Virus genome (UHGV): UHGV-0227640
Direction: 5' to 3' (one strand)
Length of the DNA stretch: 11,035 bases
From: a virus
Shown: positions 602 to 3,288 of the stretch, piece after piece
How the letters are laid out: the number at the start of each line of letters is the position of its first letter
How positions within the stretch are numbered: the first letter of the stretch is position 1
Notes under the pieces: generated by a model
The model's input: only the letters and a program-made list of their open reading frames with translations
The model's database searches: none
Told to the model about the DNA's origin: nothing
Made by a program: the position numbers and the translations under genes

Positions 602-1747
602 TTATTTTTGTTTTATGGTAAATGAAATAACATTGTCAGAATGAATCATATCTGATTCTTTAAATCGTGTAATTGCAGATAACTCATTTAAGGGAAGAGC
701 AAAGATATCAGTTAACTCAGTTACCTTTATGATTGAATGCTTATCAAGAAGTAAAAGTAACTTATTAAGTAACTCAGGCTCTTCTTTTGGGATTGCATCA
801 TCTAACGGCTCCCTACGATGGAATGGCGCTAATTGCTTAAATATATAGCTTTTCTGATTATCGCTGATTAACTTAAGGCTATGACTCCTCATGGCAATAC
901 TACCGATAGATGTAATCCAACGTAGTTTTAATCGTTCTAACGCTGATAAATTTGGACTATAAAATTCACGCCCGAAAGTGGTGGCTGGCATTAAAAAGCT
1001 GGAGGCAAAATAATCGGCCTGCAACTCCACCAGGTCGAATAATTCTTTATCATTCAGGTAGTCATCCTCCACTGCCCTATGCATAATTAAATGGCCAAGT
1101 TCATGAGCAAGACTAAATCGCATGCGAACAGCCGTCTTCGAGCTATCTAACATAATTAAAGGCCGCCCATTATGCCAGAACGAAAAGGCATCAACTTTCT
1201 CACCAGAAGGTAAATGAGAAACCACGATTCCTTTATTTTCAACAAGTCTAGTTAAATTGAGTATTGGACCATCACCTAACCCCCAAAAACGCCTTAATTG
1301 GGTGGACATATCCTCAATATCAGATAGAGACAGAACCTCAAAATCAATAATATCGAATTCAGGCAGAACCACATCTGGTAATTGAGCATATTTTAGACAT
1401 TCATCCAATATTAATGCCGCCCAACGCCCACGTGTTTTCCCTGTAACTCGAGCCTTTTTGGTCGCAGTTGAACGACTTCTAAAATGAATCGCCCCCTCCA
1501 GAGATGGAGAAGCACTGGAGGCTAAGAAAAATCGTTCTGGAAATCCTAACACCTTGGCTATTGCAGAAAGTGTATCAGCAGAGGGAGACTTCAACCCCTT
1601 CTCAAATGACGAAATAGCTTGTCTTGAAATATTGAGCACTCTGGCAAGTTCAGCCATCGTCAACCCTTTTGCCTCTCTTGCCTCCTCAAGGCGACGAGGA
1701 TTAAACGATTTATCAGTAAATGGTGTTTGTGCGATATTCATGCTCAT
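602..1747 (-). CDS. XRE-family HTH fused to ImmA/IrrE-type (COG2856 / M78-like) zinc metallopeptidase; candidate antitoxin/regulator
   Basis: 381-aa ORF. N-terminal XRE HTH (GLTMAELARVLNISRQAISSFEKGLKSP). HEXXH motif HELGHLIMH at about residue 232, as in the ImmA/IrrE family. Start ATG overlaps the upstream stop (ATGA at 1744-1747). Terminator follows. Confidence 0.85.
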   Translation of the reverse strand: MSMNIAQTPFTDKSFNPRRLEEAREAKGLTMAELARVLNISRQAISSFEKGLKSPSADTLSAIAKVLGFPERFFLASSASPSLEGAIHFRSRSTATKKARVTGKTRGRWAALILDECLKYAQLPDVVLPEFDIIDFEVLSLSDIEDMSTQLRRFWGLGDGPILNLTRLVENKGIVVSHLPSGEKVDAFSFWHNGRPLIMLDSSKTAVRMRFSLAHELGHLIMHRAVEDDYLNDKELFDLVELQADYFASSFLMPATTFGREFYSPNLSALERLKLRWITSIGSIAMRSHSLKLISDNQKSYIFKQLAPFHRREPLDDAIPKEEPELLNKLLLLLDKHSIIKVTELTDIFALPLNELSAITRFKESDMIHSDNVISFTIKQK

Positions 1748-2358
1748 GATTGCTGTGATTTAATTATTTGTTCGGTAAGAATCTTGATTTTATCTTCAAT
1801 CTCAGAATCCACATTTTCTGCTTCAACTTCTACCATCGTCATAATTGGTAAAGACTCAGTATAAAGAATCCCGTAATTATCCGAAGAAGGAACAGTTAAA
1901 TTCAGTTTGGACAAGTGCTGATTACTGCCATCATGTAACATATAAACATGTCCACCAGACGCTCTCCCATCCAGGGAGTCGGCATTTTCATCCCCAAAAT
2001 TCAATTCATAATTTTGATTAGCGTAAACAGCTCTATACAATGCCTGCTTAGGAAGTGGCGCATTACCCGATAAATGATGTGCCGTCATTTTCCAGTTGTT
2101 CGAGTGAATCGCAATGTGTTTACAATTTTTAGCAGCATTGCTACCGACTTCAAAATCCAGCCCCACACGCTTAGCCGCATTCTCAAGCAATGCATCGGCA
2201 TAAAACCAGCGCAAATATGACTGTGCTTGAGCCCAAAAAGAACCAAACTCTTTTGCCTTCATATGCGAATGAAGATAAGCCTGTGCTAACGCGATCGAAA
2301 GCTCTTTGCGGCACTCCTTGTCATATGCTTCTAACAACTGTTGAGATAAATTCTGCAT
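1744..2358 (-). CDS. Hypothetical 204-aa protein, first gene of the operon; candidate toxin/effector partner of the HTH-peptidase
   Basis: 204-aa ORF. AAGGA about 12 nt upstream of ATG at 2358. Stop overlaps start of downstream gene. No transmembrane segment or catalytic motif I recognise (His/Asn-rich centre HIAIHSNNW...HHLSGN...GGHVYMLHDGSNQH, acidic C-terminus). Visibly more A+T-rich than the phage core genes. Confidence 0.75.
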   Translation of the reverse strand: MQNLSQQLLEAYDKECRKELSIALAQAYLHSHMKAKEFGSFWAQAQSYLRWFYADALLENAAKRVGLDFEVGSNAAKNCKHIAIHSNNWKMTAHHLSGNAPLPKQALYRAVYANQNYELNFGDENADSLDGRASGGHVYMLHDGSNQHLSKLNLTVPSSDNYGILYTESLPIMTMVEVEAENVDSEIEDKIKILTEQIIKSQQS

Positions 2359-2383
2359 GACCGTAATATCCTTGTTGTTTTGG

Positions 2384-2423
2384 TGTCAACCATATTTCCA
2401 TTTAACATCGACTTTGTCAACCA
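2384..2423. promoter_or_regulatory. Putative promoter/operator of the two-gene operon
   Basis: Minus strand reads GGTTGACA (plus 2415-2423) and again GGTTGACA (plus 2384-2392): a TTGACA -35-like hexamer plus a second copy 31 bp downstream near the expected transcription start. The -10 is weak (AAATAT/GAAATA). Possible autoregulatory site for the XRE HTH. Confidence 0.25.
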
Positions 2424-2435
2424 GGTAGATGCTAG

Positions 2436-2456
2436 AAAAACCCGCCGAAGCGGGTT
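2436..2456 (-). terminator. Rho-independent terminator downstream of hok
   Basis: Minus-strand hairpin AACCCGC-uucg-GCGGGUU followed by UUUUU. Core 20 bp AAAAACCCGCCGARGCGGGT is nearly identical to the terminator at 571-590. Confidence 0.6.
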
Positions 2457-2524
2457 AAGCGCGGGTGCATTGAGGATGCCTGACTCATCAGAGGTGGCGA
2501 GGGATTTCTCCCCCGCCTAGTCTC

Positions 2525-2680
2525 TTACTCCTCAGGTTCGTAAGCTGTGAAGACAGCGACCTCCGTCTGGCCGGTTCGGATTCGTACCTCGCAGAGGTCT
2601 TTCCTCGTTACCAGTGCCGTCACTATGACGGTTAAACAGATGACGATCAGGGCGATTAACATCGCCTTTTGCTGCTTCAT
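2525..2680 (-). CDS. hokD: Hok/Gef-family type I toxin (small membrane-depolarising peptide), HokD/RelF-like
   Basis: Not in ORF track (51 aa). Manual translation of minus strand 2680->2525: MKQQKAMLIALIVICLTVIVTALVTRKDLCEVRIRTGQTEVAVFTAYEPEE. AAGGAG 9 nt upstream. From memory this matches HokD (RelF) of E. coli K-12. No relB/relE upstream. Confidence 0.8.
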   Translation of the reverse strand: MKQQKAMLIALIVICLTVIVTALVTRKDLCEVRIRTGQTEVAVFTAYEPEE

Positions 2681-2938
2681 AGCCTGCTTCTCCTTGACCT
2701 TTCGGTCCGTAAGAGGCTAATCTCTATGTGTCGCATAGATATGGCCTCAGATTAATGTTAAGCGTCTTGCAGGACGCGTAATGTTAACTGGGGCTTTTCT
2801 CTATCTGCCTTTTGGTGTTCATGCCTGAGACAGATAGCCTCAAGCACCCGCAGTCATTCTACTTAACTAAGATTTCCCCGCAAACCGTTTTTGTCCGGCA
2901 CAGTAAATATCCAACTAAACCAATGGCGTTCGCTGTAT
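2677..2938 (-). promoter_or_regulatory. hok mRNA leader region; expected position of mok-like coupling ORF and antisense Sok-like RNA
   Basis: 258 bp with no long ORF. A 19-codon uORF (minus 2736->2677, MRHIEISLLRTERSRRSRL) ends in an ATGA overlap with the hok start. Plus-strand TTGACC (2694-2699), 18 bp, TAATCT (2718-2723) could drive an antisense RNA. Inverted repeat CTATCTG/CAGATAG at 2801-2837. Confidence 0.3.
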
Positions 2939-3118
2939 TTACCGCCAGTATTCAATGCACATGACCGCCATGAACACCCCTAAAAAAAGGGCATTTATAT
3001 ATCCAAATATTAATATCAAAACATCAACTTTTTCCATATACCTTGCTGTGAAGATGATGGGCATACATGATACGAACAACCAGAACGCAACAAACAAAAA
3101 CTGCAATGCGTTTTTCAT
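2939..3118 (-). CDS. Small hydrophobic protein (59 aa, two predicted transmembrane helices)
   Basis: MKNALQFLFVAFWLFVSCMPIIFTARYMEKVDVLILIFGYINALFLGVFMAVMCIEYWR. Strong SD (AGGAGG) 4 nt upstream of ATG at 3118. The ORF-track N-terminal extension to 3157 lacks an SD. Embedded in a strongly A+T-rich stretch (about 2950-3290). Confidence 0.55.
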   Translation of the reverse strand: MKNALQFLFVAFWLFVSCMPIIFTARYMEKVDVLILIFGYINALFLGVFMAVMCIEYWR

Positions 3119-3288
3119 TATTCCTCCTACAATCAATGTGCAATTACATTTAAACACACCTCAATTTGGCCGGACATATAAATATCTAAACCAGAAAAAA
3201 TCACTTACATAGCGTTACAAACTCTTTAGTCTAAATATTCATCGTAAAACATTCCCCATACTTATCAGCCCGTTCTGCGCCAGGTAGC

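What the first reader, a model, noticed from the sequence alone, without database searches (positions are those of the whole stretch)
2525..2938. Stand-alone hok/gef-type toxin gene (not in ORF track) with a long leader and a 19-codon coupling uORF
Seen: a 51-aa peptide with a hydrophobic N-terminus and conserved Hok-like C-terminus, an SD, a terminator, and a 258-bp upstream leader containing a short uORF whose stop overlaps the hok start (ATGA). No relBE-like genes precede it. Established (from memory): hok family toxins are controlled by a mok coupling frame and antisense Sok RNA; in K-12 the hokD (relF) copy sits behind relBE and is thought to lack its own regulatory region. Inference: this may be a more complete hok/mok/sok locus.
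Basis: partly seen in the sequence, partly recalled or inferred. Interest (0 to 1): 0.55.

Follow-up and report, generated by a model that had tools for sequence, protein, structure and literature searches.

The report
Known prophage hok/sok toxin-antitoxin locus
This is an ordinary, already annotated hok/mok/sok (hokD/hokW-type) toxin-antitoxin cassette in an E. coli lambdoid prophage, complete with its RNA control elements; its one small oddity is that the upstream coupling reading frame is 19 codons long instead of the usual 70.

Summary
Window 2525-2680 (-) encodes a 51-aa Hok/Gef peptide (Pfam 1.2e-23) identical to E. coli HokD. It is preceded by a leader that matches Rfam RF01794 (106.7 bits, E 5.5e-24).

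- K-12 hokD shares homology only from the hok Shine-Dalgarno onward; relE replaces the leader there.
- This copy keeps the promoter, tac, ucb, mok SD/ATG, dcb, fbi, terminator and a ~69-nt antisense Sok gene (2730-2798, +).
- Folding reproduces the R1 switch: tac/fbi in the full-length RNA, tac/ucb plus mok-SD/dcb after 3' trimming. The tac/fbi stem covaries across genera.

It is not new. RefSeq annotates identical copies as hokD, and phage 933W (91% identical) carries annotated mokW/hokW/sokW. hokW-sokW of Sp5 has been shown experimentally to be a type I TA.

Corrections: the transcribed leader is about 169 nt (+1 near 2849), not 258. The 3' UTR (2436-2524) lies outside the stated coordinates.

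The 19-codon uORF is the mok homologue in a minority reading frame. In 77 of 93 distinct relatives the same ATG opens an in-frame 68-71-codon Mok. The exact allele is widespread in E. coli. Low interest.

The parts
2856..2884 (-). Putative hok mRNA promoter: -35 TTTGCG 2884-2879, 17-nt spacer, -10 TAGAAT 2861-2856
   Evidence: Read. The AAACGGTTTGCGG...GTTAAGTAG(A/G)AT block is conserved in 933W and other phage copies, and TA-AT lies before +1 across genera. It falls below the threshold of the consensus scan. Inferred, not shown.
2436..2849 (-). Full-length hok mRNA (about 413 nt), +1 near 2849 to the terminator U-run
   Evidence: The Rfam sok/hok-leader model starts at 2849. The 5' end aligns with the R1 +1 region GGCGCUUGAGGC. 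MFE -170.1 kcal/mol, z -7.97, with the 5' end paired to the 3' end.
2837..2849 (-). tac (translational activator element), GGGUGCUUGAGGC
   Evidence: Pairs with fbi in the full-length fold and with ucb in the 3'-trimmed fold. Nearly invariant in 34 loci.
2788..2798 (-). ucb / anti-SD of mok, AAAAGCCCCAG
   Evidence: Pairs with the mok SD region in the full-length fold: 92% of cells paired, with AU/GC and GC/AU switches at two flanking pairs. Pairs with tac after trimming. Element definition from PMC9841398.
2745..2748 (-). mok Shine-Dalgarno GAGG, 8 nt before the mok ATG
   Evidence: Homologous to the R1 GAGG mok SD (nt 104-107, PMC9841398) in alignment A2.
2677..2736 (-). mok homologue: 19-codon uORF (MRHIEISLLRTERSRRSRL) whose TGA overlaps the hok ATG
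   Evidence: The ATG is positionally homologous to the mokW, mokC and R1 mok starts.
2713..2717 (-). dcb core GCCUC, within the conserved UAGCCUCUUAC at 2719-2709
   Evidence: Pairs with mok SD GAGGC in the trimmed-RNA fold and in the RNAalifold consensus. 96% of cells paired against 40-59% when slid.
2690..2693 (-). hok Shine-Dalgarno GGAG
   Evidence: Invariant AAGGAG in alignment A2. K-12 hokD homology begins here.
2525..2680 (-). hok CDS, 51 aa, identical to E. coli HokD (WP_000813254.1)
2496..2517 (-). 3' stem-loop GGCGGGGGAGAAAUCCCUCGCC, the expected 3' end of the processed, active mRNA
   Evidence: Conserved, with compensatory changes (cols 402-429). Role inferred from R1 (PMC9841398).
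2463..2479 (-). fbi (fold-back inhibition element), GCAUCCUCAAUGCACCC
   Evidence: Pairs with tac through 12 bp with one bulge. Pair col 44-471 is U-A in 22, C-G in 9 and U-G in 3 sequences.
2436..2456 (-). Intrinsic terminator of the hok mRNA (AACCCGCUUCGGCGGGUUUUU)
   Evidence: Conserved in K-12, CFT073 and phage copies. Synteny with other prophages breaks immediately after it, at 2437/2438.
2694..2723 (+). Putative Sok promoter: -35 TTGACC 2694-2699, 18-nt spacer, -10 TAATCT 2718-2723
   Evidence: Read. Same position as the R1 Sok promoter (the -10 overlaps dcb, PMC9841398) and upstream of the annotated sokW start. Below the consensus-scan threshold. Inferred.
2730..2798 (+). Sok antisense RNA (about 69 nt): 5' tail complementary to the mok start, long hairpin, U-run
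   Evidence: Projection of the annotated 933W sokW (L139 577-647) through alignment A3. Same geometry as K-12 sokC. Fold -30.8 kcal/mol, z -5.54.

Best explanation
This is a canonical type I toxin-antitoxin cassette of the hok/mok/sok family (hokD/hokW subtype). It sits between the early-gene block and the DUF968/RusA/Q region of an E. coli lambdoid prophage.

Proposed mechanism, inferred from R1 and supported here by sequence, folding and covariation:
1. A weak constitutive promoter makes a roughly 413-nt hok mRNA (2849 to 2436, minus strand).
2. That RNA is inert. Its 5' tac element pairs with the 3' fbi element, and the mok Shine-Dalgarno is sequestered by ucb.
3. Slow 3' trimming removes fbi. 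tac then pairs with ucb, and the mok SD pairs with dcb, forming the Sok-target hairpin that displays the mok start.
4. The abundant, unstable antisense Sok RNA (about 2730-2798, plus strand) binds that region. The duplex is degraded, so mok is not translated, and hok is not translated either.
5. If Sok is lost or its synthesis stops, ribosomes translate mok across the hok SD and reach the hok AUG. Hok, a 51-aa inner-membrane toxin, is then made.

In this allele mok is only 19 codons, and its UGA overlaps the hok AUG (AUGA). Coupling would therefore work by termination-reinitiation rather than by read-through of a 70-codon overlapping frame.

The likely biological role is prophage-linked: addiction or maintenance, and/or assistance in lysis and phage release on induction, as reported for hokW-sokW of Sp5.
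For: Shown here:
- Hok family membership. The peptide is identical to HokD.
- Rfam RF01794 match, 106.7 bits against a gathering score of 59.
- 91% DNA identity to the annotated mokW/hokW/sokW locus of 933W.
- The full-length fold pairs tac with fbi and ucb with the mok SD, z -7.97.
- The trimmed RNA ending after the 3' stem-loop refolds to tac/ucb plus mok-SD/dcb, with the mok AUG in the enclosed hairpin.
- In 34 loci from Escherichia, Kluyvera, Citrobacter, Photorhabdus, Pantoea, Erwinia and an R1-like plasmid, the RNAalifold consensus recovers these stems. 20 of 57 pairs show compensatory changes.
- Tested stems are 89.6% paired (FL) and 97.4% paired (Tr), against 29-59% for slid controls.
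- The Sok candidate folds as a 5' tail plus a long hairpin plus a U-run, z -5.5.
- In 92 of 93 distinct canonical leaders an ATG lies 56-58 nt before the hok ATG, and the ORF always reaches the hok start.

From the literature:
- In R1, only translation of mok up to the hok initiation region is needed. Stops beyond the hok start have no effect (PMC9841398).
- HokW is toxic, sokW RNA neutralises it, and mutating the sokW promoter unmasks the toxicity (PMC8621323).
Against: - There are no expression data for this copy.
- Both promoters fall below the threshold of the consensus scan.
- The mok frame is shorter here than in 933W, K-12 mokC and R1. A stop that overlaps the hok AUG itself was not the case tested in R1.
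- Chromosomal hok loci (hokA, hokB, hokC) were reported not to mediate post-segregational killing (cited in bioRxiv 10.1101/2025.08.07.668861). Activity of a chromosomal or prophage copy therefore cannot be assumed.
- The tac/ucb and SD/dcb stems are almost invariant, so they are supported by conservation rather than covariation. The few 'both sides changed' cells probably come from the non-homologous L030 leader.
Confidence: 0.9

Rival explanations
1. This is a decaying or silenced copy. The net 1-nt frame change turns the usual 70-codon Mok into a 19-codon peptide, and this is an inactivating lesion. Termination at the hok AUG would couple poorly, so little Hok could ever be made. On this reading the locus is a relic, like several K-12 hok loci.
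For: - 77 of 93 distinct relatives keep the in-frame 68-71-codon form, and only 6 have the 19-codon form.
- K-12 hok loci are known to be inactivated in various ways, and chromosomal loci failed PSK tests (literature cited).
- K-12 hokD itself has lost its leader.
Against: - Every other element is intact and the peptide is unchanged.
- The exact 90-nt allele is found in up to 777 E. coli records.
- The same -56 arrangement arose independently in hokC of E. ruysiae and E. whittamii (L017, L019).
- R1 genetics shows that translation beyond the hok start is dispensable (PMC9841398).
- AUGA stop-start overlaps are a classic efficient coupling signal (general knowledge).
Confidence: 0.12
2. This is a stand-alone toxin or membrane peptide gene expressed directly from its own SD. 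There is no functional antisense RNA, and the upstream ORF is a chance ORF.
For: The consensus promoter scan finds no sigma-70 site on either strand in 2380-3200. K-12 hokD exists without a Sok.
Against: - The leader matches the curated covariance model at E 5.5e-24.
- The homologous region of 933W is annotated as sokW, and sokW RNA was detected and shown to be functional in Sp5 (PMC8621323).
- The uORF ATG is conserved in position in 92 of 93 leaders and always stays open as far as hok.
- The hok start region is base-paired with covarying partners (cols 230-240 with 359-370).
Confidence: 0.02
3. The molecular mechanism is the same, but the main role is anti-phage abortive infection rather than prophage maintenance or release. 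Infection shuts off host transcription, Sok decays and Hok kills the cell. The cassette would then form a small defence island with the adjacent RosmerTA module.
For: A RosmerTA pair (RmrA 5.5e-102, RmrT 7.5e-10) lies directly next to the hok terminator. R1 hok/sok has been reported to exclude T4 (my knowledge; role in phage defence cited).
Against: - The bioRxiv survey found no enrichment of hok near defence systems.
- In most relatives the RosmerTA insert is absent, so the adjacency is allele-specific.
- The only experimental study of this subtype points to phage release after induction (PMC8621323).
Confidence: 0.2

Closest known systems
mokW/hokW/sokW of Stx2 phages 933W and Sp5 (VT2-Sakai)
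   Same: - Same position in a lambdoid prophage.
- 91% DNA identity over about 440 nt.
- Same promoter block, tac, ucb, mok SD/ATG position, dcb, hok SD and fbi.
- The annotated sokW maps onto window 2730-2798.
- HokW is toxic and sokW neutralises it (PMC8621323).
   Different: - MokW is a 70-aa in-frame N-terminal extension of HokW. Here the frame is shifted by a net -1 (2 nt fewer in the hairpin loop, 1 nt more in the next hairpin), giving 19 codons that end on the hok ATG.
- The Hok C-terminus reads FTAYEPEE here and FVDYESEK in HokW.
- The Sok-target hairpin sequence differs.
- 933W lacks the terminator hairpin seen here.
E. coli K-12 hokD (relF) in the Qin prophage
   Same: The 51-aa peptide is identical. 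DNA is near-identical from the hok SD to the terminator, fbi included.
   Different: K-12 has relB-relE directly upstream. Homology stops at the hok SD, so there is no promoter, tac, ucb, mok or Sok. The window has the complete leader and no relBE.
E. coli K-12 hokC/mokC/sokC (gef)
   Same: The architecture is the same, with about 82% peptide identity. sokC starts a few nt inside the 5' end of mokC, the same geometry as here.
   Different: mokC is a 69-codon in-frame extension. The locus is chromosomal rather than prophage-borne, and in K-12 it is flanked by IS186.
hok/mok/sok (parB) of plasmid R1
   Same: Same set of elements and the same predicted refolding pathway (PMC9841398). The mok ATG lies 58 nt before the hok ATG in R1, against 56 nt here.
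   Different: - Only about 45% peptide identity.
- R1 mok is 70 codons in the other overlapping frame.
- The cassette is plasmid-borne and mediates post-segregational killing.
- The Sok stem-loop region differs in length.

Membership tests
Hok/Gef toxin family (Pfam PF01848) | Significant match to the HOK_GEF profile above the gathering score | tested here: met
   82.9 bits against a cut-off of 22, E 1.2e-23, residues 6-47 covering the full profile. PHROG 251 'MokW-like host killing', 2.8e-33.
Hok/Gef toxin family (Pfam PF01848) | Peptide of about 50 aa with an N-terminal hydrophobic helix and the conserved TRKxLCE motif | tested here: met
   The sequence has LIALIVICLTVIVTALV followed by TRKDLCEV. 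TRKDLCEV is conserved in nearly all relatives recovered.
Hok/Gef toxin family (Pfam PF01848) | Kills or arrests cells when overexpressed | not testable with these tools
   The identical peptide is K-12 HokD. The 92%-identical HokW arrests growth on induction (PMC8621323).
hok/mok/sok type I TA locus (R1 parB paradigm) | Long-range 5'-3' pairing (tac/fbi) that locks the full-length mRNA | tested here: met
   12 bp in the MFE fold. Recovered by RNAalifold across 34 loci with a U-A/C-G switch (22/9) at one pair.
hok/mok/sok type I TA locus (R1 parB paradigm) | mok SD sequestered by ucb in the full-length RNA; tac/ucb and mok-SD/dcb stems after 3' trimming | tested here: met
   The predicted structures switch as in R1 when the last ~60 nt are removed. 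Stems are 92-99% paired across loci against 29-59% when slid. This is conservation only, not covariation, for the trimmed-form stems.
hok/mok/sok type I TA locus (R1 parB paradigm) | Upstream mok frame with its own SD, translated through the hok initiation region | tested here: met
   GAGG lies 8 nt before ATG 2736, and the ORF is open to the hok ATG. The ATG position is conserved in 92 of 93 leaders. Translation itself was not tested.
hok/mok/sok type I TA locus (R1 parB paradigm) | mok overlaps most of hok (about 70 codons) | tested here: not met
   Here mok is 19 codons and stops at 2679-2677 on the hok ATG. R1 genetics indicates that the overlap beyond the hok start is dispensable (PMC9841398). 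I therefore treat this as an allele difference, not as exclusion from the family.
hok/mok/sok type I TA locus (R1 parB paradigm) | cis-encoded antisense Sok RNA with its own promoter, complementary to the mok initiation region | tested here: inconclusive
   The sequence features are present: TTGACC-18-TAATCT, a hairpin plus U-run, z -5.5. The annotated sokW and sokC map to the same place. The promoter is below the scan threshold, and no transcript data are available.
hok/mok/sok type I TA locus (R1 parB paradigm) | 3' exonucleolytic processing that activates the mRNA; RNase III cleavage of the Sok duplex | not testable with these tools
   Truncated hokW RNAs and RNase III dependence are reported for Sp5 (PMC8621323).
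relBE-hokD operon arrangement (K-12 Qin) | hokD immediately downstream of relE, with no leader of its own | tested here: not met
   The alignment shows the window diverging from K-12 upstream of the hok SD. No RelB/RelE-like ORF lies upstream.

The most novel reading that the evidence does not exclude
The 19-codon mok with an AUGA stop-start overlap may be a selected alternative coupling mode rather than a neutral frame slip. It would deliver ribosomes to the hok AUG by termination-reinitiation and avoid making the 70-aa Mok-Hok fusion that the in-frame alleles (933W, mokC) must produce. More broadly, the mok ATG is fixed in position, but all three reading frames are used across the family (77 in frame, 9 R1-type, 6 short). 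This is comparative evidence that only ribosome transit to the hok start is under selection. It could also tune how much toxin is released.
Probability: 0.35. Interest if true: 0.25.

Novelty: already known. Interest (0 to 1): 0.13.

Why it matters
It matters little as a discovery. The cassette is annotated in RefSeq (hokD) and GenBank (mokW/hokW/sokW of 933W), is captured by Rfam and Pfam, and has been studied experimentally in Sp5. The check has three uses.
- It confirms that K-12 hokD is the truncated derivative of this complete prophage cassette.
- It gives exact coordinates for every regulatory element in this window.
- It documents that the mok frame is not conserved while the position of its start codon is. 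A recent survey said it could not annotate mok reliably, so this may help automated annotation of mok.

Tried and rejected
- The consensus promoter/terminator scan of 2380-3200 found nothing. I rejected it as evidence of absence. Both promoters have 8 or fewer of 12 consensus matches, yet they are homologous to functional R1 and sokW promoters. The terminator hairpin is plain in the fold.
- I first thought the uORF shared the R1 mok frame. Counting showed ATG-to-ATG distances of 58 nt in R1 (ATG 116 and 174, PMC9841398), 57 nt in most relatives and 56 nt here.
- The R1-like plasmid copy I fetched (L004) has the 57-nt, in-frame form, unlike R1 itself.
- The apparent compensatory changes in the tac/ucb and SD/dcb stems are single cells. 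They probably come from L030, whose leader is the non-homologous relE-type sequence, so I do not count them.
- The first trimmed-RNA fold, ending at 2484, paired the mok SD with the leftover 3' tail. Ending the RNA right after the 3' stem-loop, as in R1, gave the SD/dcb stem.
- A literature search on the mok gene names returned only Monascus papers.
- The NCBIfam scan failed because the 19-aa peptide is below the size limit, and I did not repeat it.
- I did not use the large protein-database, structure-prediction or fold-search tools. The identity of the locus was settled without them.

Full report
**Observation**

The minus strand of window 2525-2680 encodes MKQQKAMLIALIVICLTVIVTALVTRKDLCEVRIRTGQTEVAVFTAYEPEE. 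This matches Pfam HOK_GEF over the whole profile at 82.9 bits, E 1.2e-23, and PHROG 251 'MokW-like host killing'.

Upstream on the same strand there is a GGAG Shine-Dalgarno and a 19-codon ORF (ATG 2736, MRHIEISLLRTERSRRSRL). Its TGA (2679-2677) overlaps the hok ATG as ATGA. Downstream there is a GC-rich hairpin followed by U5 at 2456-2436.

An Rfam scan of the whole window gave a single hit: RF01794 (sok/hok leader) on the minus strand at 2849-2678, 106.7 bits against a gathering score of 59, E 5.5e-24.

Two boundaries need correcting.
- The covariance model and the alignment to R1 and 933W put the 5' end of the transcript near 2849. The leader is therefore about 169 nt, not 258. The stretch 2850-2938 holds the promoter (-10 TAGAAT 2861-2856, -35 about 2884-2879) and spacer.
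- The functionally important 3' UTR (2436-2524) lies outside the stated coordinates.

**Context**

The window is the early/replication region of an E. coli lambdoid prophage, with genes on the minus strand: YdaT, DUF977, Ead/Ea22-like proteins and a methyltransferase. The 601 nt around hok match 4,938 of 5,426 complete E. coli genomes, with a median of 2 places per genome. At 99.3% identity they match CFT073 and many others, where the ORF is annotated 'hokD: type I toxin-antitoxin system toxin HokD', WP_000813254.1.

In phage records the same cassette appears as 'host killer protein', 'MokW protein' or 'HokD toxin'. [quoted passage not shown] A recent survey reports that hok is enriched in prophages (bioRxiv 10.1101/2025.08.07.668861).

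**Is it more complete than K-12 hokD?**

Yes. I aligned the window, CFT073 and MG1655 relB-relE-hokD. K-12 is essentially identical from AGGAGAAGCAGGCT-ATG (window about 2697) through the CDS, fbi and the terminator. Immediately upstream, K-12 has the end of relE and no similarity to the window. The window and CFT073 carry the whole leader.

**Regulatory anatomy**

Element definitions follow the R1 system as summarised in PMC9841398. With them, every element can be placed on the minus strand:

| Element | Sequence | Window coordinates |
|---|---|---|
| tac | GGGUGCUUGAGGC | 2849-2837 |
| ucb / anti-SD | AAAAGCCCCAG | 2798-2788 |
| mok SD | GAGG | 2748-2745 |
| mok ATG | ATG | 2736 |
| dcb | GCCUC, in UAGCCUCUUAC | 2717-2713 (2719-2709) |
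| hok SD | GGAG | 2693-2690 |
| hok ATG | ATG | 2680 |
| 3' stem-loop | GGCGGGGGAGAAAUCCCUCGCC | 2517-2496 |
| fbi | GCAUCCUCAAUGCACCC | 2479-2463 |
| terminator | AACCCGCUUCGGCGGGUUUUU | 2456-2436 |

Folding supports the R1 refolding pathway.
- The full-length RNA has an MFE of -170.1 kcal/mol, z -7.97. It pairs tac with fbi (12 bp, one bulge) and ucb with the mok SD.
- The RNA trimmed to the 3' stem-loop refolds. tac now pairs with ucb, and the mok SD pairs with dcb around a small hairpin that carries the mok AUG.
- This is the closed-to-open switch described for R1.

On the plus strand, TTGACC (2694-2699), an 18-nt spacer and TAATCT (2718-2723) precede a predicted RNA. That RNA has a short 5' tail complementary to the mok start, a long hairpin and a U-run (-30.8 kcal/mol, z -5.5). 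Projecting the annotated 933W sokW through the alignment gives Sok at about 2730-2798. K-12 sokC has the same geometry relative to mokC.

**Comparative test**

I collected 53 genome loci and 80 viral loci encoding relatives. I aligned 34 diverse ones: E. coli phages, Shigella, E. ruysiae, Kluyvera, Citrobacter, Photorhabdus, Pantoea, Erwinia, Kalamiella and an R1-like plasmid.

- RNAalifold recovers the tac/fbi stem, the 5' hairpin, the mok-SD/dcb stem, a long-range pairing of the hok start region with the distal coding region, and the 3' stem-loop. 20 of 57 pairs show compensatory changes.
- In tac/fbi, one pair is U-A in 22 sequences, C-G in 9 and U-G in 3. The C-G cases are Photorhabdus, Pantoea, an Erwinia locus and the R1-like plasmid.
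- The full-length stems are 89.6% paired against 29-48% when the partner is slid.
- The trimmed-form stems are 97.4% paired against 40-59%. They are almost invariant, so this is conservation, not covariation. The isolated 'double changes' there probably come from L030, whose leader is the non-homologous relE-type sequence.

**The 19-codon uORF**

This uORF is the mok homologue, not an extra element. Its ATG sits in the same arm of the same hairpin as the start of mokW, mokC and R1 mok.

I examined 93 distinct loci with a canonical leader. In 92 of them an ATG lies 56-58 nt before the hok ATG, and in every case the ORF stays open at least to the hok start. The frame, however, varies.

| Distance to hok ATG | Outcome | Distinct loci | Examples |
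|---|---|---|---|
| 57 nt | In-frame N-terminally extended Hok of 68-71 aa | 77 | mokW, mokC |
| 58 nt | Long out-of-frame overlap | 9 | Same distance as R1 (ATG 116 vs 174, PMC9841398) |
| 56 nt | 19 codons ending in ATGA | 6 | This window |

- The window allele differs from the commonest one by 2 fewer nt in the hairpin loop and 1 extra nt in the next small hairpin.
- The exact 90-nt allele occurs in up to 777 E. coli records.
- The same 56-nt arrangement also occurs in hokC of E. ruysiae and E. whittamii, so it has arisen more than once.
- In R1, stop codons in mok beyond the hok start do not affect hok expression, whereas stops before the hok SD abolish it (PMC9841398).

From this I infer that the short allele is functional and couples by termination-reinitiation. 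That inference has not been tested.

**Mechanism and role**

The best explanation is the standard hok/sok mechanism given in the Best explanation section. Shown here are family membership, all sequence elements, the predicted refolding switch, covariation of tac/fbi and other stems, and conservation of the mok start. Inferred are promoter activity, 3' processing, Sok expression and turnover, coupling at the AUGA, and the biological role.

For the role, the only direct data on this subtype point to help with phage release after SOS induction (PMC8621323). Prophage addiction and abortive-infection defence remain possible.

**Novelty**

None for the locus, which is already known and annotated. 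The only mildly new point is the frame plasticity of mok with a fixed start position. This is consistent with published R1 genetics and with the remark in the 2025-26 survey that mok is hard to annotate. I found no paper that tabulates it, but I could not search the subscription literature (for example Pedersen & Gerdes 1999), so I do not claim priority.

**Verdict**

The locus is already known, and interest is low (0.13).

Noticed in passing
window 602-2358 (-), insert about 560-2437: A two-gene RosmerTA anti-phage module lies directly after the hok terminator. RmrA (602-1747) is an HTH plus M78 peptidase, PADLOC 5.5e-102. RmrT (1744-2358) scores 7.5e-10 and matches PHROG 35814 at 3e-146. Synteny with CFT073 and E01 prophages breaks exactly at 2437/2438, and the roughly 1.86-kb insert accounts for the 17% of the window missing from the best genome matches. 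Two viral loci (L126, L106) share the same junction.
   Followed up: partly
window 2939-3118 (-): An unannotated 59-aa hydrophobic ORF (MKNALQFLFVAFWLFVSCMPIIFTARYMEKVDVLILIFGYINALFLGVFMAVMCIEYWR) has a strong SD (GGAGGA) and ends 54 nt upstream of the hok promoter's -35 box. It is intact in about 20 related loci with a few conservative substitutions. It has no Pfam, PHROG or PADLOC match and is not annotated in the RefSeq neighbours examined. It is probably a real small membrane protein gene.
   Followed up: partly
window 2722-2745 (-) and the homologous columns 164-192 of alignment A2: Among loci that encode the identical HokD peptide, the hairpin carrying the mok ATG is hypervariable: CCATATCTATG, CCCAATCTATG, CTCAATCCATG, CCAATTTCATG, CCCCTATATG and others. 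This hairpin is also the target of the Sok 5' end. The flanks are invariant. Genomes carry up to 9 copies, so this looks like diversification of Sok/target specificity that would avoid cross-talk between copies.
   Followed up: no
L030 (Kluyvera sp. CHPC 1.2972) 1321-1500; also L005, L009, L090, L094: The K-12-type arrangement, with the relE 3' end fused to the hok SD and no leader, is not confined to K-12. A Kluyvera locus has the same relE-like sequence upstream of a 70%-identical hok. The relBE-hok fusion is therefore older or more mobile than a K-12 accident.
   Followed up: no
window 2536-2546 (-), hok codon 47 (TAC 2542-2540): The motif UUACGAA around Tyr47 is invariant in all 34 aligned loci (cols 372-378). 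It matches the TadA-type UACG editing context. The bioRxiv survey states that hokC, hokD and hokE mRNAs undergo A-to-I recoding to Cys at the equivalent position, so this copy is probably also a Tyr-to-Cys editing substrate.
   Followed up: no
L004 (pMTY1886_IncFII) 434-503: An IncFII plasmid copy encodes a Hok peptide identical to the R1 Hok sequence I supplied from memory as the query. Its mok ATG lies 57 nt before the hok ATG, in frame and 71 codons long. In R1 itself the distance is 58 nt. The mok frame therefore differs even between near-identical plasmid loci.
   Followed up: partly
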